A stretch of DNA of 35,958 bases from Pedosphaera sp. GTDB taxonomy: Bacteria > Verrucomicrobiota > Verrucomicrobiia > Limisphaerales > SIAT01. The translations under genes were made by a program, and so were the position numbers. The first letter of the stretch is position 1. The number at the start of each line of letters is the position of its first letter. Positions 3,370 through 33,277 of this stretch are shown here, piece after piece. Where the stretch lies: assembly GCA_009691645.1 (NCBI GenBank), contig SIAT01000001.1:1-35958 (forward strand), written 5' to 3'. The notes beneath the pieces were generated by a model. That model searched no databases and was not told the origin of the DNA. It saw nothing but the letters and a program-made list of their open reading frames with translations.

Positions 3370-3376
3370 GATCGGC

Positions 3377-18867: not shown

Positions 18868-21216
18868 GTGCTTCGCTATCGAGGAATAATCTGGCTGTCC
18901 GCACTCGCCGCGTTCGTTGCGGCACCGCTCGCGGCTCAGCCCGTACTGGATGCCACGGGCCCGCGCCCCGGCCATTCTACCCACGGAGACGCTTTCAACG
19001 AAGGCCCACGCCAGCGCGCCTACCTGATGTCCGGGGTCGGCCACGTCGAGTTCCCCATCACGACGACCGCCTCCGGGGCGCAGGCGTTCTTCAATCAAGG
19101 CGTCGCCCAGCTCCACGGCTTCTGGTATTTCGAGGCCGAACGTTCCTTTCGCCAAGTCGCCGCGCTCGATGCACAGAGCGCGATGGCGCACTGGGGCTTG
19201 GCGATGGCGAACATCAACAACACCCGGCGCGCCAAGGAATTCATCAAGAAAGCGGTCGCCCTCAAGCCCGCCGCCAGTCCGCGCGAGCGACTCTGGATTG
19301 ACGCCCTCGCCGCGCTGTACTCCGATGAACTCAAGGACGCCAAAGCCCGCCAGAAAGCGCACATCGACCAACTCACCGCCATCAGCGAGAAGTTCCCCGA
19401 CGACATCGAGGCCAAAGCGTTTCTCGCTCTGAAAATCTGGATGGATGGCGAGAAAATCTCGCCGTCGCGCCCGTACACCGAGGTCGAAAAAATTCTCAAG
19501 CCGCTCCTCGCCGCGCATCCCGAACATCCCGCGCACCATTACCGCGTCCATCTTTGGGATTATCGTGATGCCAAGCAGGCCGTGGAAAATGCCGCTGCGT
19601 GCGGCCCCGCCGCCGACGGCATCGCCCACATGTGGCACATGCCCGGCCACGTCTACTCACGCCTGCACCGCTACGCCGACGCCGCGTGGCAGCAGGAAGC
19701 TTCGGCCCGCGTGGATCACGCCCACACGATGCGCGACCGCGTGTTGCCGGATCAGATTCACAATTACGCCCACAACAACGAATGGCTCACGCGCGACCTC
19801 AGCCACGTCGGCCGCGTGCGAGACGCCATCGCGCTGGCGAAAAACATGATCGAGTTGCCGCGCATCCCGCAGATTTCCAAAGGCACCAACGCCACCGGTT
19901 CCTACTCCGTTTCCAAGACCAGCAGCCACGCCTACGGCCGCACTCATCTGCTCGCCTTGTTGAACAACTACGAGCTGTGGAACGAACTGATCGCGCTCGC
20001 GCAGACCCCTTATCTCGCGCCCGCAGCGAAGGACACCGAAGATCAGGTCAAGATCGCCAAGTCGCTCGCCAAAGCTTACTTCAGCCTCGGCCGCACCAAC
20101 GAAGGCCAGCAGCAGCTCGCTCTGCTTGAAAAAACTCTCGCCCTCGAACGCGCCAAGCAATTGCCCAAGCCCGCCCCCGCCCCCGCCACGAACGCTCCTG
20201 TCAACGCCCCCCCCAAGACCGCGACGAAATCCCCCTCGCCCACCAACCGCCAGCAGCAACTCGAATCCGCCAGCGCCGAGGCACGCACCTACGCCGCTCT
20301 CGCCGCTGGCAACACCACCAACGCGCTCGCGCATCTCGCCAAAGCCAAGGATTTGTCCAAAGACGAACTCGCCCGACTCCATCTCGCGCTCGGCGACAAA
20401 ACCAAAGCCGAGCAACTCGCTCTCGAAGCGGTGAAGAGTGCGACCAACCAGATCCGGCACCTCGCCACTTACATTCATATCCTTCAGCAGAGCGGCAAAA
20501 CGCAACCGGCCCGCGATGCCTTCCAAAAACTTCGCGAGCAAGCCGCCCACGCCGATCTCGATCTGCCACTGCTCGCGCGCCTCGCGCCGCTCGCGAAGGA
20601 TCTCGATCTCCCTGCCGATTGGCGGGCCAAGCGCATCCCCGCCGCCGATCTCGGCCCGCGCCCGCCGCTCGATTCCCTCGGTCCCTTCCGCTGGCAGCCG
20701 AGTCCCGCGCCCGAATGGTCGTTGCCCGACAGCAAAGGCCGCACCCTCTCGCTCGCCCAGTTCCGCGGCCGGCCGATCGTTCTCCTTTTCTACCTCGGCG
20801 CCGGCTGCCCGCACTGCGTCGAGCAGCTCAATATTTTCGCGCCGGCCAACGCTGACTTCGCGAAGCTCGGCATCACAGTCATCGGCGTGAGCACCGACAC
20901 TGCGGATGGTTTGAAAGCGACCTTCGCCAAGACCACACTCGGCAGCGCGTTCCCTTTCCCGCTCGTCTCCGATCCCTCCCTGAGCGCCTTCAAATCCTAC
21001 CGCGCCTACGACGACTTCGAGCAAATGCCACTGCACGGCACCTTCCTGATCGATGCCGAAGGCCGCGTGCGTTGGCAGGACATCAGTTACCAGCCGTTCC
21101 AGCAGGTGGATTTCCTGCTCGAAGAAGCCCAGCGTCTGCTCTCGTTGAATAAGCCGGCCGCCGTCGCGCCTCCCCTCGCCAAACCCGCTCCGCGCTTCGG
21201 CAAACCCGGCTCGTGA
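18868..21216 (+). CDS. secreted TPR-domain / thioredoxin-fold (AhpC-TSA/TlpA-like, CPHC motif) fusion protein
   Basis: Signal-like IIWLSALAAFVAAPLAAQP, a ~600-aa helical/TPR region, a Pro/Ala linker, then SLPDSKGRTLSLAQFRGRPIVLLFYLGAGCPHCVEQL...GVSTD...FPLVSD...GTFLIDAEGRVRW. GTG at 18868 is preferred; ATG at 18769 is the alternative. Confidence 0.75.
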   Translation: MLRYRGIIWLSALAAFVAAPLAAQPVLDATGPRPGHSTHGDAFNEGPRQRAYLMSGVGHVEFPITTTASGAQAFFNQGVAQLHGFWYFEAERSFRQVAALDAQSAMAHWGLAMANINNTRRAKEFIKKAVALKPAASPRERLWIDALAALYSDELKDAKARQKAHIDQLTAISEKFPDDIEAKAFLALKIWMDGEKISPSRPYTEVEKILKPLLAAHPEHPAHHYRVHLWDYRDAKQAVENAAACGPAADGIAHMWHMPGHVYSRLHRYADAAWQQEASARVDHAHTMRDRVLPDQIHNYAHNNEWLTRDLSHVGRVRDAIALAKNMIELPRIPQISKGTNATGSYSVSKTSSHAYGRTHLLALLNNYELWNELIALAQTPYLAPAAKDTEDQVKIAKSLAKAYFSLGRTNEGQQQLALLEKTLALERAKQLPKPAPAPATNAPVNAPPKTATKSPSPTNRQQQLESASAEARTYAALAAGNTTNALAHLAKAKDLSKDELARLHLALGDKTKAEQLALEAVKSATNQIRHLATYIHILQQSGKTQPARDAFQKLREQAAHADLDLPLLARLAPLAKDLDLPADWRAKRIPAADLGPRPPLDSLGPFRWQPSPAPEWSLPDSKGRTLSLAQFRGRPIVLLFYLGAGCPHCVEQLNIFAPANADFAKLGITVIGVSTDTADGLKATFAKTTLGSAFPFPLVSDPSLSAFKSYRAYDDFEQMPLHGTFLIDAEGRVRWQDISYQPFQQVDFLLEEAQRLLSLNKPAAVAPPLAKPAPRFGKPGS

Positions 21217-22287: not shown

Positions 22288-23451
22288 TCACTTCAGCTCG
22301 CGTACGAAGAGGTTGGCGAAGGTGATCGGCTCACCGGCGGCGCGCAGGACAATCGGCCCGCGCTTGGGCGTACCCGTGATGCGGCGCTTTTCACCGAGCA
22401 ACTTGCCGTCCTGTTCCACGGTCAGCTCATCGCCGCGCAGTGTGATTTGCAGTCGATGCCAACTGCCGGATTGCGCGCGGTCGAGCTTCACGAGGGCGGA
22501 ATCCACGCCGCGCAGGGAAATGGATCCCACGTCGCCTGGCTTCGCGGAATCGGGCTTGGCGGAGGAGAGCCAGTCCACGATCATCACGAAGTCGCCGAAC
22601 TCTTGTTCGGTCGTGAGCGGCGGTGTGCCGGCTTTGGCATCACACTCGAGCCGCCAGTCGCTCACGCGCCAGTGCTCTTTCGCAGGCGCATCGGCCCGCC
22701 AGCCAGCGAGATCCACACCGGTGTAAAGCGTGGTGAAACCCTCGGCAGCCTTCGCGATCTGGTCAGGCGATGGACTGGAGGAGGGCAGTTCCTTGATGCG
22801 GATGTTTCGGAAATGGCACTCGCTCCCCTCGCTCTCGAGGCAGAGATAGCCTTTGCGCGGAGAACTGTCCCTGCCGACCGTCACTTCCTTCCCGTTCACG
22901 CTGAGGCGCACCTCGCCGTTGTTGGCGACGACGCGATAATGATTCCACTCAGGCGCGCTTTTCGAGAGTTCTTCGGATGGAAAACTGCGCCGGCCGCTCT
23001 TGGCCACGAGGCCCGCGGGGGTCATCGTCGCGCCGTGGATGGGGAAGATGTCGCCATGCGTGGTGAACCACTCGTTCTTGCCCTTGGCGGCGTAGCCATT
23101 GTCGAGGATCTGCACCTCGATGCCGCGGGCGAAGGGCGTGCCGCGCGCCGTCATCGGATCGCCCCAGATGAAAAGGCCGGCGTTGCCGCCGCTTTTCAGA
23201 TGGCGCCACTCCAACTCGATGATGAAGTTCTCGTACATCCGTTCGGTGCGCATCACGCCGGTCGGTTTGCCGGTGGAGATGATGATCCCCTCGCGCACGG
23301 TGAAGGTGCCTGGCGCGACGTTCACCGGCACCCAACCGGAGAGGTTCTTGCCATTGAACAGCGGCACGAAGCCCTCTTCCGCGCCGCGCGCGATCAGTGC
23401 GCACGCGAATAGGACAACAAGAAGCCTGCGAATGTGCGTGGTTGTTTTCAT
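22288..23451 (-). CDS. secreted protein with two DUF1080 (3-keto-disaccharide hydrolase-like) domains
   Basis: Signal peptide, then GFVPLFNGKNLSGWVPV...FTVREGII...YENFIIELEWRH...NAGLFIW...IEVQILDNGY. A second copy follows (FTTLYTGVDLAGWRA...WRVSDWRLEC...FGDFVMIVDW). Confidence 0.8.
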   Translation of the reverse strand: MKTTTHIRRLLVVLFACALIARGAEEGFVPLFNGKNLSGWVPVNVAPGTFTVREGIIISTGKPTGVMRTERMYENFIIELEWRHLKSGGNAGLFIWGDPMTARGTPFARGIEVQILDNGYAAKGKNEWFTTHGDIFPIHGATMTPAGLVAKSGRRSFPSEELSKSAPEWNHYRVVANNGEVRLSVNGKEVTVGRDSSPRKGYLCLESEGSECHFRNIRIKELPSSSPSPDQIAKAAEGFTTLYTGVDLAGWRADAPAKEHWRVSDWRLECDAKAGTPPLTTEQEFGDFVMIVDWLSSAKPDSAKPGDVGSISLRGVDSALVKLDRAQSGSWHRLQITLRGDELTVEQDGKLLGEKRRITGTPKRGPIVLRAAGEPITFANLFVRELK

Positions 23452-23485: not shown

Positions 23486-26400
23486 TTACTTCTGCGCTTC
23501 GCTCGCAGCCGTCAGCGTCGGCTTGTAGAGCGGCAGGTAGCGGTAATAGACCTCGAGCGAAAGCGTGGCGAGAGCGGTGGTGATGAAGCGGCCGTAGGTT
23601 TCCTTGCGATCGCCCTCGGCATCCCAGCTTCCCGAGAGTTGGCCGTCGCGCCGCTGCGCCTTCAGGAAGATCGGCCGCATCCGCCCGTTCCATTCCTCCC
23701 ACACCGCGCCCTGATGCTGGTAGAGCGCCAGACAGCCGTAGTACCAGTAGTAATAATTCACCTCGCGCAGGCTGGGCAACTGCTCTCGCAGATAGGCGAG
23801 CGTCTCCGTCGTGCGCACGTCGCCCGTCCCCTGCCCGAGCAGCAGCCGCGAGAACAGCGCCTGCGCCGTCATCGTCGGCTTCGGCTCCGGATCCGACGAG
23901 CGATACCCGTAAAGCCCTCCATGCCGGCCGCGACCGAGCGATTCGATAAACTTCCCCGCGCCCGTGAACGCCGAACTCGGCACTTCCACGCCCGCGAGCG
24001 ACGCGCTCTTCAGCGCCATGATTTGCCAGCCCGTCACCGAGAGATCGCCCTTCTCCTGCGGATCGCGCGCCCACGGCTTGTAACGCCAGCCGCCGGTTGT
24101 TTTGTTCTGCGCCGTGACGATGAACGAGACCGCTTTGCGCACCGGCTCTTGCAGCCGTGGATCTTTCGTGAGGTTGAACGCCTCGGCCAACGCCATCGTG
24201 ACGATCGCCTGATCGTACAAATCGCCGTCGCCGCGCAAATCGCCCTCCGCCTTCGACTGCTTCAAAAGCCACGACATCGCGCGCTCAAGCGTCTCTTGAT
24301 ACGGCCCCGGTTCGGTGTGCTTCGCGCCGTAGCCCATGAAGCAGAGCATCGCCAGCGCCGTCGCCGACGAGTGATGCCCCTGCCCGCCGCGCGTCCAATG
24401 GCCGTCGCGCTCCTGCGTGCGCTTGAACCATTCCAATGCCCGCCGCACCGCCGCCTCCGTCTCATCGTTGCCGCCGAGTTGCTCGAGCAATCCCGCGCGC
24501 ATCTCCGGCGAGCGCAGCGCGAGCGGGTTCTTCGTGTCGATCAAAGACGAGACCGCCGGACGCACCGGCACGGCCATATCCATCAACCGCGTCGCCGCAG
24601 AAGTCGGCAGCTCCGACGGACGCGATAGTTCAACGCTCTCGATCTTGGTTGACGGCTGCAACACCGGCCGCAGCGGTGCCAGATCCATCGGCGCACGCGC
24701 AATCAGTCCCATCGGCCGTTCCACTTTCGTCACAATCGGCGCGGCCTTCATCGGTGTGATGGGCGACGCCAGTCGCACTTCGGGGAGAGGCGCGGGCTTC
24801 GGTGACGCGGCCACCATCGCGGGCTTTGTCTCCAGCTTTACATCCGTGCTGCCGAACTTGAGCGACGCAGGTTGTTGGCCAAAATTCATCGCGACCAAAC
24901 CGCGACCAGACTCACCTGTGCCGGAACCGAACTCCGCCTTCTGCGCCGCGGCGAAAGAACCGAACTTGCTCGCGCCGCCACTACTGCTCCCCGACCCACT
25001 CAACCGGGCCGGCCCGCTGCCCGTGCCGCCTTCACCGCCGCCCGAACCGCTCGCACGGCTCACGGCCGCTTTGCTCGAGGCGCGTCCCACATCCGAACCT
25101 TTACCCGCTGAGCCTGGTGCTGGAGATGCCATCTCCGCACGGAAACCGCCGCCGGCCATCGCAAATTGAGGTAATCCCGCCACCGCGCGTGAAGCTCCCG
25201 CCGCGCCCAAACTCTCGCCACCACCCGAACCCCCACCGGTCGCCGGACCGAACGCACCCACCGCCGATGAACCCGTGCCGCGACCTGCGCCGTTCTTGCC
25301 GCCAGTCCCCACGCCGTCACCCATCGCCGCGCGACCCGGCGCAGCCGAACCGCCATTGCCATTTTCCGAACCATTGCCCGACCGCGACACATCCATCCGA
25401 CTGGATGCACCCGCCAGACCCGCGCCCGATCGCGCGCCCGCTGCGCCACCACCGAGTCGACCTGCTTCCATCTGCATCCCGCCACCGGCACTACCACCAG
25501 CAGCGCCACTGCTCCCAGCGAGCGAAGAAAGTGATCCCGCAGAACTCGCCGCGCCCAAGCCACCACTCGAACCGCCGCCGGCACTCACCGGCCCGAACGA
25601 ACCGACCGCCGAAGAACCGCTGCCCTGTCCCGCGCCGGAACGGCCACCAGCCAGCGCGCCGTTGCCCATCGCCGCGCGGCCCGGTGCAGTTGCACTGCCG
25701 CCCGAGCCATTGCCCGACGGTGACACGTCCATCCGACTCGATGCACTCGCCAAACCCGCGCCCGACTTCGCGCCCGTCGCGCCGCCGCCGAGCCGGCCTG
25801 CTTCCATCTGCATACCACCGCCAGCGCGACCGCCAACAGAGCCGCTGCCCGTGGACGAAGAAAGTGAACTGGCGGAACTCGACGCGCTCAATCCTTCGCC
25901 CGCACCGCCGCTGTTACCGTTGCTCACGGGACCAAATGAACCGACCGCTGAAGAACCACGCGCGGTCCCTGCTGTGCCGCCAGCGAGAGCGCCACTGCCC
26001 ATCTGCGCACGGCTCGACGAGGCCGAACCGCTCGCGCCCGCGCTGCCGGCGGCGCGCGCGACATCCATCTGGCTGGAAGCACTAGCCATTCCCGCACCCG
26101 ATTTCGCGCCCGTCGCGCCACCACCGAGCCGGCCTGCTTCCATTTGCATCGCGCTCGTCGTCGCGCCGCTGGGATTTTCACCGGCCGTTGCCGCCATCGA
26201 TCCGGCTGCGCTCGCTGCGCCCAAACTTTCGCTGCGCGCCGCGTTGTCACTCACCGGCCCGAACGAACCGACGGCAGAACCCGCCGCACTGCGCGAGGTA
26301 CTCACACGCGCGGGCGAGTTCGCCGCGTTCATCTCGGCGCGGGCGGACGTTGCGGCATCGGCTGCGCCGCGCGCGGTGTCCATCCGGCTGGATGGATTTT

Positions 26401-27487
26401 GCATCGTCGGCCCCGACGCGCTGGCGGCGACGGGACGGGCTGATTCCATTTGAACGCCGGTGGTGGAAGGGGTGTTCGCAGACATCGCACCCGACGCACT
26501 CGCTGGGGGGAGTGACGGAGCTGCGGAGGCGGATTCGCCGGTCGCACCCGAGGCTTCCGCCGTGGCCACCTGCACCATGCGCGAAGCGGTGACGCCGGGG
26601 CGTTGCACGCGCACGTTCATCGTGGGACGAGCCATCTCGGGCGTGACCTGCTGCACGGCCATCCGACTCGGCGCAGTGAGATCGAGCGAAGGACGGACCA
26701 TCTCGGGCCGCGGGACACTCGTGTCGGCGCGGGCCTCGAGGGAAGCATTCATCTGCGCGGCTTCCGGGGCGAGCGGGGTCGCGCTCGCGGTCTCGAGCCG
26801 ACCGCTCTCCGTCGGAGAACTCTCGGCGACCGCGAACGACGCCGACGGCGCCGCGCGCCCCGTCGAGCCGCCGGTCATCACGTTTCCATTGCGCATCGGC
26901 GCACCGCCGCCGCCCGATTGGCCGGTGGCCCGGGCTGCGGACATTCCTGCAGCCGCGGGGGGCAGATTCGAGACCTGTTCACGCAACGCTTGCAACAAGC
27001 GCGGATCGGCCTCGCCGCCGCCTCCTTCGCTTTCGCCAGAAAGGCTCGCGAGGTCAATGGGCACGAGACCCGACTCAGCGGACACTTCGATCACGGAACG
27101 TTTCACTGCATTGGAAACAATCCACGTGGTGACGAAGAAACCGGCCAGAAGATGGAGGATGATCGAACCGATGAGGCAGCGCTGGAGGATGTTCAGCTTG
27201 CGCCGCTCGCTCTCGGTGGCGAGCTTGCGGACGATGTGGACAATCCCCACGAGCGAGAGAAGCAGCACGAGCACGGCCCACTTGTATTGCACGAGCGTGT
27301 GCAGCACGGCCTCGACTTTGTCCGGAGCCACAGTAGGAGGTGTCGCCTCGGGAACGATTGCGGGAACGACTGGATCCGCGGCTGAAAGCAAACCGGCCCA
27401 CGCAACGAAACCGAATGCCGTGAGCCAACGGCCTCCCTTCCGCGCGGGGCGCGGCGGCGAGACGTGACGGTCGTGGCGTGTCGGCAT
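23486..27487 (-). CDS. 1333-aa membrane-anchored protein: 3 N-terminal TM helices, a long Ser/Gly/Ala/Met low-complexity spacer with tandem repeats, and a C-terminal prenyltransferase/squalene-cyclase-like alpha/alpha-toroid domain
   Basis: TM candidates are WLTAFGFVAWAGLLSAA, WAVLVLLLSLVGIVHIV and CLIGSIILHLLAGFFVTTWIV. The C-terminal ~325 aa (23489-24463) read RALEWFKRTQERDGHW...AQNKTTGGWRY...DLSVTGWQIMALK...HGGLYGY...NYYYWYYGCLALYQ...LSGSW. The ATG at 27487 lies 8 nt after the upstream TPR gene's stop. Confidence 0.75.
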   Translation of the reverse strand: MPTRHDRHVSPPRPARKGGRWLTAFGFVAWAGLLSAADPVVPAIVPEATPPTVAPDKVEAVLHTLVQYKWAVLVLLLSLVGIVHIVRKLATESERRKLNILQRCLIGSIILHLLAGFFVTTWIVSNAVKRSVIEVSAESGLVPIDLASLSGESEGGGGEADPRLLQALREQVSNLPPAAAGMSAARATGQSGGGGAPMRNGNVMTGGSTGRAAPSASFAVAESSPTESGRLETASATPLAPEAAQMNASLEARADTSVPRPEMVRPSLDLTAPSRMAVQQVTPEMARPTMNVRVQRPGVTASRMVQVATAEASGATGESASAAPSLPPASASGAMSANTPSTTGVQMESARPVAASASGPTMQNPSSRMDTARGAADAATSARAEMNAANSPARVSTSRSAAGSAVGSFGPVSDNAARSESLGAASAAGSMAATAGENPSGATTSAMQMEAGRLGGGATGAKSGAGMASASSQMDVARAAGSAGASGSASSSRAQMGSGALAGGTAGTARGSSAVGSFGPVSNGNSGGAGEGLSASSSASSLSSSTGSGSVGGRAGGGMQMEAGRLGGGATGAKSGAGLASASSRMDVSPSGNGSGGSATAPGRAAMGNGALAGGRSGAGQGSGSSAVGSFGPVSAGGGSSGGLGAASSAGSLSSLAGSSGAAGGSAGGGMQMEAGRLGGGAAGARSGAGLAGASSRMDVSRSGNGSENGNGGSAAPGRAAMGDGVGTGGKNGAGRGTGSSAVGAFGPATGGGSGGGESLGAAGASRAVAGLPQFAMAGGGFRAEMASPAPGSAGKGSDVGRASSKAAVSRASGSGGGEGGTGSGPARLSGSGSSSGGASKFGSFAAAQKAEFGSGTGESGRGLVAMNFGQQPASLKFGSTDVKLETKPAMVAASPKPAPLPEVRLASPITPMKAAPIVTKVERPMGLIARAPMDLAPLRPVLQPSTKIESVELSRPSELPTSAATRLMDMAVPVRPAVSSLIDTKNPLALRSPEMRAGLLEQLGGNDETEAAVRRALEWFKRTQERDGHWTRGGQGHHSSATALAMLCFMGYGAKHTEPGPYQETLERAMSWLLKQSKAEGDLRGDGDLYDQAIVTMALAEAFNLTKDPRLQEPVRKAVSFIVTAQNKTTGGWRYKPWARDPQEKGDLSVTGWQIMALKSASLAGVEVPSSAFTGAGKFIESLGRGRHGGLYGYRSSDPEPKPTMTAQALFSRLLLGQGTGDVRTTETLAYLREQLPSLREVNYYYWYYGCLALYQHQGAVWEEWNGRMRPIFLKAQRRDGQLSGSWDAEGDRKETYGRFITTALATLSLEVYYRYLPLYKPTLTAASEAQK
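25141..26455 (-). repeat. four head-to-tail coding tandem repeats (~306 + 3 x 336 nt) inside the 1333-aa gene
   Basis: Unit starts on the minus strand are at 26455, 26149, 25813 and 25477. The last three are spaced exactly 336 nt. Each unit begins (V/M)QME and carries SS(R/Q)MD, (A/Q)MG.G and GSSAVG(S/A)FGP. The plus-strand string CCTGCTTCCATCTGCAT recurs at 25461 and 25797, and CCTGCTTCCATTTGCAT occurs at 26133. Confidence 0.9.
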
Positions 27488-27495
27488 CAGGTCAT

Positions 27496-30400
27496 TTAGC
27501 GGAGCCGCTCCTTCGCAATCTGAGCGGCATCGGTGTCAGGATAACGTTGCGCAACTTCCTTGAAACGCTCCAGTGCGCCGGGGCGGTCGCCTTTACGCTC
27601 GAGCACGTTTCCGATCCGCAGCAGCGCGCGCGCACTCCACTCGGGATAGCCGTAACCGACCTCGACCTTGATAAGCGCACGAATGGCGTCGTCGTACTTC
27701 TTCTGCGCGAAAAGGCACTCACCGGTCTGGAACTGCGCGCGCGCCGCGAGGTCGTCGCGGCCGCCGCTGGTGATCACCGTTTCGTAGAACGGGAGCGCCT
27801 CGGTGAATTTCTGTTGGTTCTCGTGCGACCAACCGAGGCCGAGCTTGGCGCGACGGGCGAGATCGTGCTTCGGAAACTTCTCGATGAAACTCGCGTAAGT
27901 CTTCTCCGCGTCGGACCACTGGCTGAGCAACGCCTGACATTCGCCCGTGCGGAGCAATGCCTGTTCCTTGACCTCCGCGCCACCGGTCGCGGCGGATGAC
28001 CGTTGAAAATGGGCGAGAGCGGTCTTGTACACCTTGAGCTTGAGCTGCGATTCGCCCGCCTGATACGCAGCCACAGCGATCAATTCGGGCGGCGCATCTT
28101 TGAGTACGGTCTCATAGGACTTCGCGGCGGCAATGAAATCATTCTTGTCGAACTGACACCACGCGAGACGATACCGCGCGCGACTGCGCAGGCCATCGTC
28201 CTTCGTCTCGGCGAGCAATTTCGTGAGCCGCTTGATCGTGCCGTCCACGTTCTTCGCCTCGTACTCCAACTCGGCCAACTCGAACGCGGCCGGCCCGGCC
28301 AGTGGACTTTGCGCGAACTTGCCGAGGAGCGTCTCGTACTCCTTCGCGGCGGCGGCACTGCGCCCCGCGCCTTTCTCCGCCCACGCCGCCTCGTAAATCG
28401 CGCGGTCGCGCAGCGTGGACTTCTCCATCGCCGCGACTTTGTGGAACTGCTCAAGCGCCGGCGCCCACTGGCGCTGCTTCGCAAACACGCTGCCGAGATG
28501 GAAGGATGCTTGGTCGAGCTTCGCATCGTTCGGATTCTCCTTCACGAACTTCGCCAGCGCAGCCTGCGCGGCGGCGGCGGAACCCTCGTCGTTTCGCCGC
28601 GCGAGAAGCACGGCGAGCTGCAGACGTGCGTCGGATGCAGCGGAGTGGCCGGTGAACTTATCCGCCACGATGCCGAATTGCTTCACCGCTTCGTCTTCGT
28701 TCTTCTCCCCGAGAGCAGTCCACGCTAGATAATACTCCGCCCAGCCGAGATAATATTCCACCGCTGCGGCGGGTGTGGCCGGAGCCTTCGAGCCACTCAA
28801 CCCCACAAGCACGCGCGCGCCGGAACCTTGCTCCGATCCTCCTCTCGGCGCCGTGCGGGGAGCGGCAGTGGCCGCGGCAACCTGCGTGAGCGCCTTGCGC
28901 GCGCCGGCGAAATCGTTCGCGTCCAGCCGCAGGCGGCCGATCTCGACGAGCGCGTGCGGCAGGTGCGCGCTGGCCGGATGCTCCCGCGCGAGACGGTCGA
29001 GTGAGCTGGCTGATTTCTCACGGTCGCCCTTGCGATCATGCGCCAACGCGATCTTGAGCAGCGCCGTGTCCGCATCCGGATCTTTCGGCTGCGACGCCAC
29101 GAAACGATTCAGCGCGGCGATCGCGGCGTCCCATTTTTCCTGCTGGAAAAGGCAGTCGCCGAGGAGGAACTCCACCTGCGCGAAAAGCGGCTCGGACTTC
29201 TTCAGCTTGCCGAGCGGTTCCAACTCCTTCACCGCGTCGGCCCACTTCTGCTGCTGATAAAGCGTCTGGCCTGCGCGGAGTTGCGCGATGTCGCGCTGCG
29301 GGTTGGCGGCGTACGCGCCGATGAATTTGCGATAAGCCGTCAACGCAACCTCGAACTTCTCTTGGAAGAAAAGATTCTCCGCCCGCAGGAAAGCGATCTC
29401 GGCCGAAGCGGGCGAACCGGCGTGGTTGGTGAGAAATTCGGCGCAGAGATCGTGACTCGCGGCGAACTGTCCGGCGCGATGCAGACACAGCGCGCGCAGG
29501 CGGAGCGCGTCAGGCGCTTGCGGGAACTTGGAGAACTCAGCGTTGATCCGCGCAAACGGTCTGGCCGCCTCGGCGAACTTCCCTGCGCCGAGCAACGCGT
29601 TGCCGTGGTCGAAAAGCAGGTCGGGCAGGAGCCCATCCTTCGCGTGGCGCGCCGTCGCTTTGGCGAGCGACTCCGCTGCCTCGGCATATTTCTGCTGACG
29701 CGAGAAAGCTCGCGCCTGCCAAAGCGCGACATCCGCGCTGGCGGCGGGCTCGGCAGCGAGTTGTGCCAGCGTGGTCTCGGCGGATTTGAAATCGCGGTTC
29801 TCGAGTTGCGCGCGGCCGAGATAGAGCGCGGCGGATTTGGCGGAAGGATGCTCTTTGTGCTTCGCGCGCAGTTCAGCGAAGTCAGCCGCGGCGGCGGCAA
29901 ATTTCTTCTGCTGGAAACGGACGAAGCCGAGACGGAAGAGCGCCTCGGGAGTGAACTGCCCAGCAAGCTTGCGCGTGGCGTCATACTGCGCCTCCGCACC
30001 GGCGAGGTCGCCCAGCTCGCGTTTGCATTCGGCGAGCAAGAAGATCGACTGCTGCGCGAAGGGGAGGTTTTTCGCCTCAGTCACCAGCTCGCCGAGCAGC
30101 CCGGCGGCTTCCTTGTACTCCTTCAATTCGTAACGGGCGACCGCTCCCTGAAACTTCGCACGCGGCGTGTAGGCAGCCTTCCCCTTCGCCAGCTCATCGC
30201 CACGAGTGATGACTTCTTTCCATTTCTGCTGCTGGAAAAGCGCTTCGACGAGACCGGCCAGCGCGTTGTCGCGCAGCACAGCCTTCTCCTGCTTGAGCGC
30301 TTTTGAAAAAGCCTCCTCCGCTTTCGCGGCCTTGTTCAACATCAACAGCGACTGTCCCCAGACGAGATGCACCTGCTCCGGTTCGGGCGCCTTCGCGTTC

Positions 30401-30693
30401 GCCGCGAGTTCGGCCAGCACCGGCTCGACCTCGGCGTGACGACCGAGATTGAAGAGGCTCAAAGCCATGCCGAGCTTGGCGTGCAGCGCCTTCTCGTGGC
30501 GGGGATGCTTGGCGAGGAAACTCTTATAGTCGGCCGCGGCCAGATCGTAGAGCTTGCGATTGTAAAGGCCGTTGGCGCTGAAGTAGAGCTCGAGGGCGGG
30601 GTCGTTCTGCTGCGCGAACACTGCGGGCGCAAACTGCGCCGCGAGCAGCAGCGCGGCCAAGGCCAGCGCGAGCCGATAAAAGCGAATCATCAT
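27496..30693 (-). CDS. ~1065-aa secreted all-TPR protein (YbgF/CpoB- and BamD-like repeat units)
   Basis: MMIRFYRLALALAALLLAAQFAPAVFAQQ signal peptide, then uninterrupted TPR-like units to the last residue (e.g. ARYRLAWCQFDKNDFIAAAKSYETVLKDAP; ALLRIGNVLERKGDRPGALERFKEVAQRYPDTDAA). ATG at 30693 has a GGGAGG SD 10 nt upstream. In-frame alternatives are at 30753 and 30747. Confidence 0.8.
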   Translation of the reverse strand: MMIRFYRLALALAALLLAAQFAPAVFAQQNDPALELYFSANGLYNRKLYDLAAADYKSFLAKHPRHEKALHAKLGMALSLFNLGRHAEVEPVLAELAANAKAPEPEQVHLVWGQSLLMLNKAAKAEEAFSKALKQEKAVLRDNALAGLVEALFQQQKWKEVITRGDELAKGKAAYTPRAKFQGAVARYELKEYKEAAGLLGELVTEAKNLPFAQQSIFLLAECKRELGDLAGAEAQYDATRKLAGQFTPEALFRLGFVRFQQKKFAAAAADFAELRAKHKEHPSAKSAALYLGRAQLENRDFKSAETTLAQLAAEPAASADVALWQARAFSRQQKYAEAAESLAKATARHAKDGLLPDLLFDHGNALLGAGKFAEAARPFARINAEFSKFPQAPDALRLRALCLHRAGQFAASHDLCAEFLTNHAGSPASAEIAFLRAENLFFQEKFEVALTAYRKFIGAYAANPQRDIAQLRAGQTLYQQQKWADAVKELEPLGKLKKSEPLFAQVEFLLGDCLFQQEKWDAAIAALNRFVASQPKDPDADTALLKIALAHDRKGDREKSASSLDRLAREHPASAHLPHALVEIGRLRLDANDFAGARKALTQVAAATAAPRTAPRGGSEQGSGARVLVGLSGSKAPATPAAAVEYYLGWAEYYLAWTALGEKNEDEAVKQFGIVADKFTGHSAASDARLQLAVLLARRNDEGSAAAAQAALAKFVKENPNDAKLDQASFHLGSVFAKQRQWAPALEQFHKVAAMEKSTLRDRAIYEAAWAEKGAGRSAAAAKEYETLLGKFAQSPLAGPAAFELAELEYEAKNVDGTIKRLTKLLAETKDDGLRSRARYRLAWCQFDKNDFIAAAKSYETVLKDAPPELIAVAAYQAGESQLKLKVYKTALAHFQRSSAATGGAEVKEQALLRTGECQALLSQWSDAEKTYASFIEKFPKHDLARRAKLGLGWSHENQQKFTEALPFYETVITSGGRDDLAARAQFQTGECLFAQKKYDDAIRALIKVEVGYGYPEWSARALLRIGNVLERKGDRPGALERFKEVAQRYPDTDAAQIAKERLR

Positions 30694-30833
30694 AGCGATC
30701 AAACCTCCCGAACCGGCTGAGAAACGCCTTGGGTTGTTGCTCGTCATCGTCATATTGCCCCAAAAGCTACACCCACTTGTCGCGCAATTCGACCCAAGTC
30801 GCAATCAAATATTCAGAAGCAGAGCGTTTCTGT

Positions 30834-31874
30834 TCAACGCGCTTTCCGCGCCGAAATCACGCTGCGATCGGCAGTCGTCGGCGTAAGAGTCATTCCGGTG
30901 AAACCGGCCTCTGCCAGCCACACCTCCAATTCAGCCACCGAATAGCAGCGCCCCTCCGTCACCGCCATCAGGATGGCCGAGTAACTCGCCACCGGCAACG
31001 GGCCGGTTTTGTCGGCGTTCAAGTGCATGTCGTGGATGAGCAGTCGCCCGCCCACCGGCAGCGTGGCGTGCGATTTTGCCAGCAACGCGCGCACCGTCGG
31101 CGCATCCCAATCGTGCAGGACATTCGAGTAAAGATGAGCGTCGAATCCATCCGGAAGCGGCCCTTTGAAGAAATCGCCCGTCAGCACTTCGACGCGCTCG
31201 GTCAATCCACGCTCGGCGATCTTCTCGCGGGCGATGGCGTCCACTGGCGCGCGTTCCAGCACCGCTGCGCGCAAATGCGTGTGCCGCGCCGCGATCGCGC
31301 AGGCGTAGATCCCGGAGCCGCCGCCGATATCGAGCAGTCGGTGGCTGCCGTTCAAATCCACCTGACGCGCCAGCGCTTGGCCGAGATAGACACCGCGGCA
31401 ATCCATCGCCGCCGTGAAGCCCCGCGCAAATCCCTCGCCCTCCATCGCCTTCGCCCATTCGCGCTCGTCCTTGTAGCTGCCCCAGTTCGCCGGTTTGTCT
31501 GTGCGGAGAATCGTGACGAAATCGCGGCAGACCGGCCGTTCCTTGAGCGAGCCGAAGTACGGCCCGAGGTTCCATTGCGAGCCGGCCACCAGATGTTCGC
31601 GCGACAGGGCTGTGACGTGAAATGTGCCGGCGCGTTTCTCGACGAGTCCCATCGCGCAGAAAAGCGTGAGCATCACATCCACCGGCCGTTCATGAAAACT
31701 GAAGGCGCGGCAAATCGCGGCGAGGTCGGAAGGGTTTTTGTCGAGCCACGTGAAGAAATCGAGTTGCGCCACCGCCGCACCGAGCAAGTCCGTGGCGTAG
31801 ATGCCGTCGCGCTGGCGGAAGATCGGCAGCGGATCGGTCTCGGGCGCACGCGTGAGGTCGGTGAGATCCCTCAT
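30834..31874 (-). CDS. class I SAM-dependent O-methyltransferase (family-2 type with N-terminal dimerisation/winged-helix domain)
   Basis: Starts at MRDLTDL, and the ATG at 31874 overlaps the upstream TGA (ATGA). SAM motif RLLDIGGGSGIYACAIAARH, then GDFFKGPLPDGFDAHLYSNVLHDWD. The ORF-track N-terminal extension to 32258 is rejected. Confidence 0.8.
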   Translation of the reverse strand: MRDLTDLTRAPETDPLPIFRQRDGIYATDLLGAAVAQLDFFTWLDKNPSDLAAICRAFSFHERPVDVMLTLFCAMGLVEKRAGTFHVTALSREHLVAGSQWNLGPYFGSLKERPVCRDFVTILRTDKPANWGSYKDEREWAKAMEGEGFARGFTAAMDCRGVYLGQALARQVDLNGSHRLLDIGGGSGIYACAIAARHTHLRAAVLERAPVDAIAREKIAERGLTERVEVLTGDFFKGPLPDGFDAHLYSNVLHDWDAPTVRALLAKSHATLPVGGRLLIHDMHLNADKTGPLPVASYSAILMAVTEGRCYSVAELEVWLAEAGFTGMTLTPTTADRSVISARKAR

Positions 31875-33277
31875 CTCCCGAACTCCCCCGCGGGCGCCGG
31901 CAGTTCGCGCTGGATCTCTTCCACGCGATAACCAAAGCCCGCGCCGCGGAGTGTGCTGAGATCCACGCAGCCGTCGCGGCGCGCGTGCAATCCCGGATGC
32001 ACCTGCGCTTCGGCAGTCGAGGCTTCGGGATAAAACTGCATCGCGTTCGTCTCCACGCCTTGAATCGTCCCGGTGTGCGCCGCGAGCAGACAATGCGGAA
32101 CCTGCGCGAGCATCGGGTTCGTCAAATCCTGCACCATCAGCGTCATCCCGTGCGCCTTGGCCCAGCAGGCCGAGAGCAGCGCGCCGGTCTGCGTTTTGCA
32201 CGTCTTGAGCGCCACGCCGGTCCAGCCCAACTCGCGCCCGAGCCGCACGTGCTCCCAATCGTGCGCGCTCTCGTCGAGGAACAGCGGCTTGCGCGCGCTG
32301 ACGCTGCGCACGTCGATGCGGTGCTTCTCCAGCTCGTACGGAAACGGCTGCTCGACGTAGAGCAACATGCCGTACAGCCGCGGCTGCTCGTCGCGCAGGC
32401 GATCAAGAATGTCGTTCACGTACGCCGGTTCGGTGACGGTGCAGTTGAAGTCGGCCGTCAACCACTCCACGCCGTGCGCCACGGCGATCGCGCCAATCTT
32501 CAGCGTGCGCGCGTAATCCCACGCCGTATCGTTGCCGCGCAGTTTGATCTTGAGACACTTCAACCCGTCGCGCCGAATCCAATCTGCGAGCAGAACCGGA
32601 TAGCCGTCCTTCGGCTCGGTCCCTTTCAATTCCGATTCATCCAACGGATCGAGTCCGCCGACCAAATGCCACGCGCGCAGCCGTTGCGGCGCGGGCGTGA
32701 CGAAGAAGTCGCATGGAAACTTGCCGGCAAACGAAACGCCCGCGCCCGCCGCCGGCTCGAGGAAATCGCCGAGCGAACGCGTCATCCATTGCGGCCCGTA
32801 CATCTCGTACACGGGGCGATCGTGCAAGTTGCCGTAGGCGTCGTGCACCGCGAGGTCGAGCACCGAACAACAAACCAGCGCCGCCAGCCACGGCATCGGC
32901 TCGCGACCGGCGCGCGCAGCGTTCGCTTCGTCGAGCAACCGCGGCAGCACCTGCTTCTGGAAGTCGTGGCCGAGTTCAATCGGATGACCGATCGCGGCGA
33001 ACTCCGTCCACGCCCGCGAGAGACGCAACGTGAAATCCTTCAACGCCGCGTGGCGTTCCTCGTACGGCAGCGCACTTGGCCAGACCCACGTGACCGACAG
33101 CGGTGTCTCTCCCCAGCCATCGGCCGTGCGGCCTTTGGCATCAGCCACACGCACGCGGGCGCGCGCGCAGGTGACGTAAGTGACCGTCTCCGGCCCGAAC
33201 TTCAGCGGCATGCGCGTGTGGACCGGCAGGAAATAAAGCGCGCTGGCGATGCAGCGGACGTCGGTGGGCTTGGACAT
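31871..33277 (-). CDS. enolase-superfamily enzyme (MR/MLE family, MLE-subgroup-like)
   Basis: The barrel motifs occur in order: LKCLKIKLRG (KxK), LTADFNCT (Asp ligand), LLYVEQPFP (Glu ligand), LFLDESAHD (Asp ligand), ALKTCKTQTG (second catalytic Lys), LMVQDLTNP. 468 aa, with an N-terminal capping domain. Confidence 0.72.
   Translation of the reverse strand: MSKPTDVRCIASALYFLPVHTRMPLKFGPETVTYVTCARARVRVADAKGRTADGWGETPLSVTWVWPSALPYEERHAALKDFTLRLSRAWTEFAAIGHPIELGHDFQKQVLPRLLDEANAARAGREPMPWLAALVCCSVLDLAVHDAYGNLHDRPVYEMYGPQWMTRSLGDFLEPAAGAGVSFAGKFPCDFFVTPAPQRLRAWHLVGGLDPLDESELKGTEPKDGYPVLLADWIRRDGLKCLKIKLRGNDTAWDYARTLKIGAIAVAHGVEWLTADFNCTVTEPAYVNDILDRLRDEQPRLYGMLLYVEQPFPYELEKHRIDVRSVSARKPLFLDESAHDWEHVRLGRELGWTGVALKTCKTQTGALLSACWAKAHGMTLMVQDLTNPMLAQVPHCLLAAHTGTIQGVETNAMQFYPEASTAEAQVHPGLHARRDGCVDLSTLRGAGFGYRVEEIQRELPAPAGEFGR

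What the first reader, a model, noticed from the sequence alone, without database searches (positions are those of the whole stretch)
23486..30693. Coupled giant gene pair: all-TPR secreted protein plus a membrane-anchored tether with a terpenoid-cyclase-like head
Two very large minus-strand genes are separated by only 8 nt (TPR stop at 27496-27498, next ATG at 27487). The upstream product is a signal peptide followed by wall-to-wall TPR units of the YbgF/CpoB/BamD type. The downstream 1333-aa product has three predicted N-terminal TM helices and then roughly 850 aa of Ser/Gly/Ala/Pro low-complexity sequence, including four ~112-aa tandem repeats. It ends in a ~325-aa globular C-terminus whose aromatic/Gly spacing (GHW, GGWRY, TGWQ, GLYGY, YYYWYYG, GSW) looks like the prenyltransferase/squalene-cyclase alpha/alpha-toroid repeat. 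I see no DxDD cyclase motif and no CxEQ thioester, so a binding role seems likelier than a catalytic one. The layout (anchor, long flexible spacer, globular head, partnered with a CpoB-like TPR protein) recalls TolA/TonB-type envelope-spanning tethers but is built from unrelated parts. I know of no characterised system with this composition. A tandem-DUF1080 gene follows 34 nt downstream on the same strand.
Basis: partly seen in the sequence, partly recalled or inferred. Interest (0 to 1): 0.7.

Follow-up and report, generated by a model that had tools for sequence, protein, structure and literature searches.

The report
TolA-like tether with toroid head
A secreted all-TPR protein and a membrane-anchored protein with a long floppy spacer and a ring-of-helices head belong to a widespread, unstudied family that related bacteria encode right behind the proton-driven ExbB-ExbD motor, so it is probably a new kind of cell-envelope force transmitter, here separated from its motor genes.

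Summary
There are two minus-strand genes 8 nt apart. One is a 1065-aa signal-peptide protein built from about 10 CpoB/YbgF-type TPR modules. The other is a 1333-aa protein with three N-terminal hydrophobic segments, an ~860-aa Gly/Ala/Ser spacer containing four ~112-aa repeats, and a C-terminal (alpha/alpha)6 toroid without DxDD or CxEQ.

The pair is a reduced copy of a conserved PVC-superphylum cassette: giant TPR, ExbB/TolQ, ExbD/TolR, then anchor-spacer-toroid. Among 50 related loci with enough upstream sequence, ExbD lies just upstream on the same strand in 47, and the full TPR-ExbB-ExbD order occurs in 39.

The last membrane helix carries a family-wide Cys-x3-Ser-x3-His face (His 40/40, Ser 39/40). 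It has the spacing, depth and orientation of the S-x3-H motor-docking motif of TolA and TonB. A conserved strand-like "motor box" candidate follows it.

I read the protein as a proton-motive-force-driven periplasmic force transducer of the TolA/TonB kind with a new head, partnered by a poly-CpoB TPR protein. The window lacks ExbB/ExbD and the PD40 loop domain found in relatives, so motor coupling would have to work in trans. The only precedent found is a 2025 report of vWA-headed transducers. Function, ligand and motor coupling are all untested.

The parts
27496..30693 (-). Gene for a secreted 1065-aa all-TPR protein with about 10 CpoB/YbgF-type TPR modules. The signal peptide is roughly residues 1-27 (30613-30693).
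   Evidence: An independent gene call also gives 1065 aa. E. coli CpoB hits the equivalent giant TPR proteins in 48 related loci. It is collinear with the L001 TPR genes at 31-32 % identity.
27488..27495 (-). 8-nt intergenic spacer between the TPR stop (TAA, 27496-27498) and the transducer ATG (27485-27487).
   Evidence: Terminator-like sites in the region are not above chance (17 found versus 11.3 +/- 3.7 expected).
23486..27487 (-). Gene for the 1333-aa anchor-spacer-toroid protein, the putative force transducer.
   Evidence: A 99.8 % identical strain variant has the same length.
27374..27427 (-). First hydrophobic segment (residues about 21-38). It is either TM1 or an uncleaved/cleavable signal, and it follows a basic N-terminus.
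   Evidence: Hydropathy 1.68. Relatives place a PD40 domain between this segment and TM2; here only about 25 residues lie between them.
27224..27292 (-). TM2 (residues about 66-88), the first helix of the conserved hairpin.
   Evidence: Hydropathy 2.2. It is aligned across the family.
27113..27187 (-). TM3 (residues about 101-125), carrying Cys104-x3-Ser108-x3-His112 just after the basic cytoplasmic loop RRKLNILQR. This is the candidate motor-docking helix.
   Evidence: His 40/40, Ser 39/40 and Cys 37/40 in family hairpins. S-x3-H is present in all 101 of 125 long family representatives that match the TM3 profile. It aligns in register with E. coli TolA S18/H22, but at only 4 bits.
27074..27097 (-). 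Residues 131-138 (SVIEVSAE), a strand-like alternating hydrophobic element just after TM3 and a candidate 'motor box'.
   Evidence: The family alignment shows 96-97 % hydrophobic residues at two alternating columns, preceded by D/E-P. The motor-box concept comes from PMC12204202.
24488..27073 (-). Low-complexity Gly/Ala/Ser/Pro spacer (residues about 139-1000), predicted to be periplasmic.
   Evidence: Composition. GC rises to 0.70 here. Family spacers range from 155 to 1219 aa and are A/P/S/E-rich.
25145..26482 (-). Four tandem ~112-aa protein repeats (residues 336-781), each with one S-F-G-P motif.
   Evidence: A 90-115-aa period recurs in distant homologues.
23489..24487 (-). C-terminal (alpha/alpha)6 toroid head (residues about 1001-1333) with QW-type repeats and family motifs GGWRY, D-x-SVTGWQ, YYYWYYG and LEVYYRYLP.
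   Evidence: The alignment has 49 invariant columns.
22288..23451 (-). Downstream tandem DUF1080 (3-keto-disaccharide hydrolase family) gene, 34 nt after the transducer stop. Probably co-transcribed, but only loosely associated with the cassette.
   Evidence: It is syntenic only in L001, L002, L012 and L093.

Best explanation
The 1333-aa protein belongs to a large PVC-superphylum family of inner-membrane-anchored, periplasm-spanning proteins. These proteins work like TolA and TonB.

Proposed mechanism:
- A membrane helix with a Cys/Ser/His face docks on the outside of an ExbB/TolQ-ExbD/TolR proton-driven 5:2 motor.
- A strand just beyond the membrane engages the ExbD/TolR periplasmic domain.
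- A long disordered, repeat-expanded spacer crosses the periplasm.
- A C-terminal (alpha/alpha)6 toroid head grips a ligand at the peptidoglycan or outer membrane, so that motor work is delivered there.
- The secreted ~10-module CpoB-like TPR protein is the periplasmic partner. By analogy with CpoB and TolA domain II, it most likely binds the repeated spacer units.

In this genome the cassette has lost ExbB, ExbD and the PD40 loop domain. The transducer therefore has to borrow a motor encoded elsewhere, as orphan TonB paralogues do.

Shown: the domain anatomy, the fold of the head, the conserved motifs and the family-wide synteny with ExbB/ExbD.

Inferred: motor docking, force transduction, TPR-spacer binding, the nature of the ligand, and motor supply in trans.
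For: Synteny:
- In 50 related loci with at least 6 kb upstream, ExbD lies upstream on the same strand in 47, ExbB in 40 and a giant TPR in 41. The full TPR-ExbB-ExbD order occurs in 39.
- Precomputed Pfam annotation shows the same order in L001, L091 and L093.
- In Gimesia, ExbD and the toroid gene are 1 nt apart.
- The window locus is orthologous to L001/L093, with the same flanks (MR_MLE_C; DUF1080, ThuA, TPR-AhpC, Asd, LpxD). There TPR-TPR-ExbB-ExbD precede the transducer.

Motor: the membrane Asp of the cassette ExbD is invariant (61/61), so the motors look functional.

Anchor:
- His112 is conserved 40/40 and Ser108 39/40. Both lie at the cytoplasmic end of an in-to-out helix after a basic loop.
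- The planctomycete short forms carry the same motif.
- All 101 of 125 long representatives that match the TM3 profile have S-x3-H.
- A strand-like element follows the helix.

Literature (PMC12204202):
- The SHLS motif docks TolA and TonB on their motors.
- A beta-strand 'motor box' follows the membrane helix.
- vWA-headed transducers occur in PVC bacteria downstream of TPR-tolQ-tolR.

Spacer: it is disordered and Ala/Pro/Ser-rich like TolA/TonB domain II, and its length ranges from 155 to 1219 aa.

Head: the model is confident, the canonical cyclase and thioester motifs are absent, and 49 columns are invariant.

TPR partner: it carries 10 CpoB-type modules.
Against: - The window contains no ExbB or ExbD gene. 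Whether the genome has one elsewhere cannot be seen.
- Similarity of the anchor to TolA and TonB stops at the motif. A TM3 profile finds no TolA or TonB chain in the PDB. It scores 4.0 bits on E. coli TolA and -4.3 bits on TonB.
- Only the S-x3-H half of SHLS is present. In the window, Val replaces Leu at H+7 and there is no Ser at H+11.
- The anchor is a hairpin, often with a large loop domain, rather than a single helix.
- The syntenic relatives L001, L093 and P0186 have a single-helix anchor without S-x3-H, even though they follow ExbB-ExbD.
- The head has invariant polar residues (E, Q, E, R, D, N) that could equally be catalytic.
- No experiment exists for any member of the family.
Confidence: 0.55

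Rival explanations
1. Passive envelope tether or scaffold. In this organism the protein no longer couples to a motor. It links the inner membrane to peptidoglycan, the outer membrane or a periplasmic assembly through its toroid head and the TPR partner, like a long static strut or spacer.
For: ExbB and ExbD are absent from the locus although orthologous loci have them. The PD40 loop domain is also lost. Three other lineages (L004, L050, L056) likewise have TPR followed directly by the transducer.
Against: The Cys/Ser/His face and the strand after TM3 are fully retained in the window protein and in the motor-less loci. That is unexpected if docking were no longer under selection. Orphan TonB paralogues commonly share motors (general knowledge of Ton systems). 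PVC genomes carry further ExbB-ExbD sets, for example a second cluster in L008.
Confidence: 0.2
2. Membrane-tethered periplasmic enzyme. The toroid would be a catalytic (alpha/alpha)6 domain acting on an isoprenoid lipid or a glycan of the envelope. The spacer would only set its reach, and the neighbouring ExbBD would be functionally linked in some other way.
For: Sequence and fold matches are to enzymes: squalene-hopene cyclases, single-domain cyclase-like 8pak/8paj, AprG, GH76 mannanases and MstE. The head has invariant E, Q, E, R, D and N plus many aromatic residues. A DUF1080 hydrolase-family gene follows it.
Against: There is no DxDD anywhere. It has one toroid instead of the two-domain cyclase body. 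NCBIfam cyclase models score 26-30 bits against cut-offs of 323-431. Fold matches are moderate (TM 0.6-0.65, 10-19 % identity) and include non-enzymatic TED domains. An enzyme reading does not explain the near-obligate ExbD adjacency or the TolA/TonB-like anchor. This rival is compatible with force transduction rather than exclusive of it.
Confidence: 0.15
3. The Cys-Ser-His helix is not a docking face. It would instead be a functional site of its own (metal or redox sensing, or intramembrane chemistry), making the protein a sensor or regulator of the adjacent motor rather than its load-bearing output.
For: Cys104 is conserved 37/40 and has no counterpart in the TolA/TonB SHLS motif. The hairpin architecture differs from single-pass TolA and TonB.
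Against: The i, i+4, i+8 spacing puts all three residues on one helix face, which suggests a helix-helix interface. The long spacer and the conserved distal head are hard to explain for a membrane sensor. No signalling domain is present.
Confidence: 0.05

Closest known systems
TolA and TonB (PMF-driven periplasmic force transducers of the Tol-Pal and Ton systems)
   Same: - Gene position directly after ExbB/TolQ-ExbD/TolR in relatives.
- In-to-out membrane helix with an S-x3-H face near the cytoplasmic end.
- Strand-like element after the helix.
- Long disordered Ala/Pro/Ser-rich periplasmic domain.
- Globular C-terminal head.
- CpoB-type TPR partner, as in the tol-pal operon.
   Different: - The head is a ~330-aa (alpha/alpha)6 toroid, not the ~90-aa TonB_C/TolA-III fold.
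- The anchor is a hairpin (plus a third segment and, in relatives, a PD40 loop domain), not a single helix.
- Only half of SHLS is kept, and a conserved Cys is added.
- No significant sequence similarity.
- The spacer reaches ~1200 aa and is built from ~100-aa repeats.
- The window lacks adjacent motor genes.
vWA-headed force transducers of PVC and other phyla (Mol Biol Evol 2025, PMC12204202)
   Same: - Proposed non-canonical TolA/TonB analogues with an SHLS-type helix, motor box and disordered linker.
- Found in PVC bacteria downstream of a TPR gene and tolQ/tolR-like genes.
- Function unknown.
   Different: - The head there is a vWA fold, and no vWA match occurs here.
- Those have a ~100-residue domain II and a pair of tolR-like genes.
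- Here there is usually one ExbD, a hairpin anchor and a toroid head.
- The toroid family is not mentioned in that paper.
CpoB/YbgF (Tol-Pal-associated TPR protein)
   Same: The TPR modules match the YbgF TPR-domain model ten times (268 bits). It is periplasmic and encoded with a TolQR-type motor cassette in relatives.
   Different: It is 1065 aa with ~10 modules, against 263 aa with one module plus an N-terminal coiled coil. It fails the CpoB equivalog cut-off (60 versus 383 bits). It lies at the head of the cassette rather than the tail.
Class II terpenoid cyclases and single-domain cyclase-like proteins (SHC; PDB 8pak/8paj)
   Same: QW-type repeats. Pfam SQHop_cyclase_C scores just above the gathering cut-off. 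These are the best Foldseek hits (TM 0.65).
   Different: No DxDD. One toroid only. It is predicted to be periplasmic and tethered. Identity is 15-18 %. It is far below the NCBIfam cyclase cut-offs.
TolB / PorE-type PD40 beta-propellers (relevant to the family, not to this window)
   Same: Canonical family members carry PD40 repeats in the periplasmic loop before the hairpin. These match PorE and CHU_0125 propeller regions.
   Different: The window protein has no PD40 domain. E. coli TolB gives no phmmer hit in any locus.

Membership tests
TolA/TonB-type force transducers | Membrane helix with the SHLS motif (S-x3-H-x6-L-x3-S) that docks on ExbB/TolQ | tested here: inconclusive
   S108-x3-H112 is present and conserved across the family (39/40 and 40/40), with the same orientation and depth. 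H+7 is Val in the window and mostly Leu in the family. There is no Ser at H+11, and an extra Cys lies at S-4. Docking itself was not testable here.
TolA/TonB-type force transducers | Encoded with ExbB/TolQ and ExbD/TolR motor genes | tested here: not met
   The window has no ExbB or ExbD. At family level the feature is met: ExbD in 47/50 loci and ExbB in 40/50, upstream on the same strand.
TolA/TonB-type force transducers | Beta-strand 'motor box' in a disordered stretch after the helix | tested here: inconclusive
   A conserved (D/E)-P-x-M-E-h-x-h element lies 23-30 residues after the His. In the window it is SVIEVSAE at 131-138. No secondary-structure or complex prediction was run.
TolA/TonB-type force transducers | Periplasm-spanning domain II (proline-rich, disordered or helical) | tested here: met
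   An ~860-aa G/A/S/P low-complexity spacer. Family spacers are 155-1219 aa and A/P/S/E-rich.
TolA/TonB-type force transducers | C-terminal TonB_C/TolA-III domain that binds by beta-strand addition | tested here: not met
   The head is an all-helical (alpha/alpha)6 toroid. No TonB_C or TolA Pfam hit.
TolA/TonB-type force transducers | Detectable sequence homology to TolA or TonB | tested here: not met
   The TM3 profile finds no Tol or Ton chain in the PDB. It scores 4.0 bits on E. coli TolA and -4.3 bits on TonB. phmmer with E. coli TolA and TonB finds nothing in the window or in any locus.
vWA-headed PVC force transducers (PMC12204202) | von Willebrand A head domain | tested here: not met
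   No vWA family appears among the Pfam hits. The head folds as a toroid.
vWA-headed PVC force transducers (PMC12204202) | Located downstream of a TPR gene and tolQ/tolR-like genes | tested here: inconclusive
   At family level the feature is met (39/50 loci). In the window only the TPR gene is present.
Squalene-hopene / oxidosqualene cyclases (terpene cyclase/mutase family) | Full-length match to cyclase models (two toroid domains) | tested here: not met
   TIGR01507 scores 30.3 bits against 431 and TIGR01787 26.4 against 323. Only one ~330-aa toroid is present. Pfam SQHop_cyclase_C scores 28.4 against 26.1 over 88 residues.
Squalene-hopene / oxidosqualene cyclases (terpene cyclase/mutase family) | Catalytic DxDD (or DCTAE) acid motif | tested here: not met
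   No D.DD occurs in the 1333 residues.
Squalene-hopene / oxidosqualene cyclases (terpene cyclase/mutase family) | QW repeat motifs | tested here: met
   Read directly from the sequence: RALEWFKRTQERDGHW, KAVSFIVTAQNKTTGGW and RMRPIFLKAQRRDGQLSGSW fit the R/K-A/G-x2-3-aromatic-x4-Q-x2-7-G-x-W pattern. The PDB alignments pair these segments with cyclase QW segments.
Alpha-2-macroglobulin / complement thioester (TED) domains | CxEQ thioester motif | tested here: not met
   No C.EQ. TED structures appear only as weaker Foldseek hits.
CpoB/YbgF | YbgF-type TPR domain | tested here: met
   TIGR02795 scores 268.6 bits against a 90.1 cut-off, in 10 stretches.
CpoB/YbgF | CpoB equivalog architecture (~260 aa: coiled coil plus one TPR domain) | tested here: not met
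   NF008068 scores 59.9 bits against 383, matching only the last module (961-1064). The protein is 1065 aa.

The most novel reading that the evidence does not exclude
The cassette is the PVC-superphylum counterpart of the Tol-Pal system and a third class of PMF-driven periplasmic force transducer, after TolA/TonB and the vWA type. Its parts map onto Tol-Pal as follows:
- giant CpoB-like TPR protein;
- TolQ-like ExbB and TolR-like ExbD;
- one polypeptide that fuses a TolB-like PD40 propeller, a TolA-like S-x3-H anchor with a repeat-built spacer, and a toroid head standing in for the Pal/TolA-III end.

On this reading the ~100-aa spacer repeats, with one F-x-P per unit, would be docking sites for the TPR modules and would set the reach across an unusually wide periplasm.
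Probability: 0.3. Interest if true: 0.8.

Novelty: new variant of a known kind. Interest (0 to 1): 0.62.

Why it matters
**Open questions it bears on.** Tol-Pal is reported as largely reduced in Planctomycetes (PMC8871954), and at least one PVC species lacks recognisable TolA and TonB (PMC12204202). How these bacteria energise outer-membrane processes such as tethering, constriction at division, uptake of large substrates and surface motility is therefore open. I found no description of this cassette in the searchable literature.

**Size of the family.** It has 8581 clusters at 50 % identity with E <= 1e-30, and it occurs in at least 585 species-level genomes.

**What it would show if the reading is right.** The ExbBD/TolQR motor output module would be exchangeable, with TonB_C, vWA or toroid heads. 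The family would give a testable candidate for the missing PVC envelope machine.

**Practical point for annotation.** Gene callers routinely split these proteins. The C-terminal pieces are then named 'terpene cyclase/mutase family protein', which misdirects annotation toward lipid biosynthesis.

Tried and rejected
- **DNA repeats.** Tandem Repeats Finder on the DNA found no array. The repeats are visible only in protein.
- **ExbB/ExbD in the window.** phmmer with ExbB and ExbD from L001 against all window ORFs of at least 50 aa gave no hit. Pfam on all large window ORFs also found no motor genes.
- **Anchor against known structures.** A profile of the TM3 helix searched against all PDB sequences returned only a chance adrenergic-receptor peptide.
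- **Anchor against E. coli proteins.** The same profile aligned E. coli TolA and TonB in register but without significance. I therefore do not claim homology of the anchor.
- **Hairpin in the 5.8-billion-protein index.** The single sequence found nothing. The alignment found only 73-153-aa stubs without domain information. One contig checked was too fragmented to help.
- **Closest relative.** The contigs of the closest relative (87 % identity) break inside the spacer and show nothing upstream.
- **Source contig.** The contig carrying the identical protein is shorter than the window.
- **Other Tol-Pal proteins.** E. coli TolB, Pal, TolA and TonB give no phmmer hits in the window or in any of the loci.
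- **Cyclase and thioester readings.** Both were rejected on motif tests and model cut-offs.
- **DUF1080 as a core component.** Rejected, because it follows the toroid gene in only a few close relatives.
- **N-terminus as an ExbB remnant.** I considered that the three N-terminal helices were left by a deletion. I rejected this because the same hairpin occurs downstream of intact ExbB-ExbD in most loci.

Full report
**1. Observation**

- The minus strand carries an ORF at 27496-30804 whose ATG at 30693 gives 1065 aa, and an ORF at 23486-27487 of 1333 aa.
- An independent public gene call on an ENA contig that encodes the identical protein gives the same two lengths.
- The junction reads ...CGC TAA atgacctg ATG..., so the intergenic gap is 8 nt.
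- The region holds no more terminator-like sites than expected by chance (17 versus 11.3 +/- 3.7), so co-transcription is plausible but not shown.

*The upstream protein.*
- It starts with a typical Sec signal (…AVFA/QQ).
- It is TPR from end to end: Pfam TPR_6, TPR_16 and YfiO; NCBIfam YbgF/CpoB TPR-domain model at 268 bits in ten stretches; BamD at 174 bits.

*The downstream protein.*
- It has hydrophobic segments at about residues 21-38, 61-91 and 100-128.
- The spacer is 25 % Gly, 21 % Ala and 19 % Ser over residues 331-830.
- It has three clean 111-112-aa repeats (447-781) preceded by a diverged unit, with FGP at 409, 518, 631 and 746.
- Tandem Repeats Finder sees no DNA repeat.
- The DUF1080 gene starts 34 nt downstream.

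**2. The head**

Residues about 1001-1333 form a single (alpha/alpha)6 toroid.
- They match Pfam SQHop_cyclase_C just above its cut-off (28.4 versus 26.1 bits) and squalene-hopene cyclases in the PDB weakly.
- With a 24-sequence alignment, AlphaFold2 gives a confident all-helical model (pLDDT 89, pTM 0.89).
- Foldseek returns only (alpha/alpha)6 toroids: single-domain cyclase-like 8pak/8paj (TM 0.65), AprG, GH76 mannanases, MstE, SHC and complement TED domains.
- Three segments fit the QW repeat pattern.
- There is no D.DD and no C.EQ anywhere in the protein.
- NCBIfam cyclase models score 26-30 bits against cut-offs of 323-431.

It is therefore a toroid of the terpenoid-cyclase superfamily but not a cyclase by any defining test. 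The family alignment has 49 invariant columns (GGWRY, D-x-SV-x-GW, YGY, YYYWYY, W-x2-WN, GSW, LEVYYRYLP). That indicates a strongly constrained surface or pocket. Whether it binds or catalyses cannot be decided here.

**3. The family and its genomic context**

*Size and architecture.*
- The head domain has more than 900 relatives in the word-indexed search.
- It has 8581 cluster representatives with E <= 1e-30 among 1.84 billion.
- At least 585 species-level genomes encode it, mainly Verrucomicrobiota, Planctomycetota, Kiritimatiellia and Lentisphaerales.
- The best 150 representatives are mostly 1000-2300 aa with the toroid at the C-terminus, so the long anchor-spacer-head layout is the norm.
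- Public gene calls often break it. In L001 three spurious opposite-strand genes are called over the spacer and the toroid gene starts at an internal Met. C-terminal pieces of 400-600 aa are named 'terpene cyclase/mutase family protein'. N-terminal pieces appear as 73-153-aa stubs.

*Synteny.* I scanned 84 loci with local profiles.
- The order on one strand is giant TPR, ExbB, ExbD, then the hairpin-spacer-toroid gene.
- Among 50 loci with at least 6 kb upstream, ExbD is present in 47, ExbB in 40, TPR in 41 and all three in 39.
- Precomputed Pfam annotation confirms MotA_ExbB and ExbD in L001, L091 and L093.
- In Gimesia, ExbD and the toroid gene are 1 nt apart.
- The membrane Asp of ExbD is invariant (61/61). 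The ExbB-like proteins score closer to E. coli TolQ (47 of 48), and the ExbD-like proteins score mostly closer to ExbD.
- NCBIfam places the ExbB-like and ExbD-like proteins of L007 nearest TolQ and TolR, below the equivalog cut-offs.

*Where the window fits.*
- The window locus is orthologous to L001/L093, with the same flanks: MR_MLE_C on one side; DUF1080, ThuA, TPR-AhpC, Asd and LpxD on the other.
- There, TPR-TPR-ExbB-ExbD precede the transducer.
- The window has neither ExbB nor ExbD anywhere in its 36 kb.
- The tight two-gene pair is thus a rare derived state. It is shared only with L004, L050 and L056 (TPR directly before the transducer); L078 has neither TPR nor motor genes upstream.

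**4. The anchor**

The second and third hydrophobic segments form a hairpin that aligns across the family.
- The consensus is …L-L-x-(R/K)-C-L-x-x-S-x-x-x-H-L-L-L… In 40 sequences His is invariant, Ser is 39/40 and Cys is 37/40. In the window these are C104, S108 and H112.
- Planctomycete short forms (600-790 aa) carry the same K-C-x-x-L-S-x3-H.
- In an independent sample, 101 of 125 long representatives match the TM3 profile, and all 101 have S-x3-H.
- The helix runs from a basic cytoplasmic loop outward, with the motif at the cytoplasmic end.
- TolA (…KRAIIISAVLHVIL…) and TonB (…LLSVCIHGAV…) show the same geometry. Both sequences were read from the E. coli record. According to PMC12204202, their SHLS motif mediates docking on the motor.
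- About 23-30 residues after the His lies a conserved (D/E)-P-x-M-E-h-x-h element, with two columns 96-97 % hydrophobic. In the window it is SVIEVSAE at 131-138. It resembles the beta-strand 'motor box' that the same paper describes after the TolA/TonB helix.

The resemblance is at motif level only. A TM3 profile retrieves no Tol or Ton chain from the PDB. It aligns E. coli TolA in register at just 4 bits and TonB at -4 bits.

Canonical long members carry PD40 repeats (TolB/PorE-like) in the periplasmic loop before the hairpin. Some have a second toroid there. The window has only about 25 residues at that position.

**5. The spacer and the TPR partner**

- Family spacers range from 155 to 1219 aa and are Ala/Pro/Ser/Glu-rich.
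- In several distant lineages with quite different composition, the best internal period is 89-116 aa. Lengthening thus seems to proceed by duplicating a ~100-aa unit.
- Many units contain one F-x-P. Over 46 spacers I counted 69 against 27 expected. This count is inflated by relatedness and by the repeats themselves, and the motif is absent in several lineages.
- E. coli CpoB hits the giant TPR proteins in 48 loci.
- The window TPR is collinear with both L001 paralogues at 31-32 % identity.
- From my own knowledge of the Tol literature (not retrieved here), the CpoB/YbgF TPR domain binds TolA domain II. By analogy, the poly-CpoB protein may bind the repeated spacer. This is inference only.

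**6. Mechanism proposed**

The protein is a TolA/TonB-type force transducer with a new head.
1. TM3 docks through the Cys/Ser/His face on an ExbB/TolQ pentamer.
2. The post-helix strand engages ExbD/TolR.
3. The disordered, repeat-expanded spacer crosses the periplasm.
4. The toroid grips a ligand at the peptidoglycan or outer membrane.
5. The secreted TPR protein scaffolds or regulates the spacer.

In this genome the motor must be supplied in trans. The anatomy, fold, motifs and synteny are shown. Docking, force transduction, TPR binding, ligand and trans supply are inferred. I put this at 0.55.

Rivals:
- a passive tether that has lost motor coupling (0.20);
- a tethered periplasmic enzyme (0.15), which is not exclusive of force transduction;
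- a sensor or regulator role for the Cys-Ser-His helix (0.05).

**7. Comparison with what is known**

- It works like TolA and TonB but fails membership on the head fold, on sequence homology and (in this window) on motor adjacency.
- The nearest published concept is the vWA-headed transducer family. It was reported in 2025 in PVC and other phyla, downstream of TPR-tolQ-tolR, with an SHLS helix and unknown function (PMC12204202).
- The toroid-headed family is not mentioned in that paper.
- No paper in the searchable library combines squalene-cyclase/prenyltransferase-repeat terms with ExbB, ExbD, TolQ or TolR.
- Planctomycetes are reported to have a largely reduced Tol-Pal system (PMC8871954).
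- Tichowtungia aerotolerans, a PVC species, is reported to lack discernible TolA and TonB.

**8. Verdict**

Novelty: a new variant of a known kind, namely a PMF-motor output module with a toroid head, a hairpin anchor and a poly-CpoB partner. The window copy is a reduced, motor-less form. Interest is 0.62. The family is large, conserved and uncharacterised, and it bears on an open question in PVC envelope biology. Against that, everything functional is inferred, and this particular locus lacks the motor genes that make the case.

Noticed in passing
L001 7695-11179 (and generally): Gene callers fragment this family. Spurious minus-strand genes are called across the low-complexity spacer, toroid genes are started at internal Mets and named 'terpene cyclase/mutase family protein', and N-terminal hairpins appear as 73-153-aa orphan stubs.
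   Followed up: partly
window 25145-26482; L048, L050, L056, L024, L016 spacers: Spacer repeats have a recurrent ~90-115-aa period in distant lineages with very different composition. Many units carry one F-x-P (window residues 409, 518, 631, 746; 69 observed versus 27 expected over 46 spacers). It could be a TPR-binding short motif, but it is absent in several lineages.
   Followed up: partly
L006, L007, L012, L014, L030, L005 (ORFs listed): Canonical long family members carry PD40 (TolB/PorE-like) repeats in the periplasmic loop before the S-x3-H hairpin. Some (L005, L010, L011, L018, L024, L047) have a second toroid in the same ORF. Phycisphaerae forms add a CarboxypepD_reg domain after the toroid.
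   Followed up: partly
L001 7695-7850; L093; P0186: The relatives most syntenic with the window have a single-helix anchor (…RRHIMFGLLVLLISALF…) without S-x3-H, although they directly follow ExbB-ExbD. This is an unexplained exception to the family motif.
   Followed up: no
L059 8437-11104 and other Gimesia/Planctomycetaceae loci (L051, L052, L068, L076, L080, L084): These loci have an ExbD-toroid gene pair (1-nt gap in L059) with no detectable ExbB or giant TPR immediately upstream. Unrelated genes, including a methyltransferase, lie there instead.
   Followed up: partly
L092 10001-11263 (P0059): Stand-alone ~420-aa paralogues (signal anchor plus toroid, no long spacer) sit away from any ExbBD or TPR genes, so the head domain also exists outside the cassette.
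   Followed up: no
window 18769-21216 (+): An 815-aa fusion of an N-terminal TPR region with a C-terminal AhpC/TSA peroxiredoxin-like domain. Its synteny is conserved in L001 and L093 (769 aa).
   Followed up: no
window 2281-3708, 4267-5478, 14581-15606: Lipopolysaccharide genes lie in the same neighbourhood: a GT9 heptosyltransferase, LpxK and LpxD. LpxD is also near the cassette in L001 and L093.
   Followed up: no
window 30834-32258 (-) versus 31871-33277 (-): The listed 474-aa O-methyltransferase ORF overlaps the MR_MLE_C gene. An independent gene call gives 346 aa, so the true start is downstream of the TTG.
   Followed up: partly
window 25001-27000: GC content rises to 0.70-0.71 across the spacer-coding region, against about 0.63 elsewhere. 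GC skew is -0.27 at 25-26 kb, reflecting the Gly/Ala/Ser codon bias of the repeats.
   Followed up: no
P0165 versus window 23486-27487: A 99.8 % identical strain variant (3 substitutions in 1333 aa) has exactly the same repeat number, so the repeat array is stable at this divergence.
   Followed up: yes
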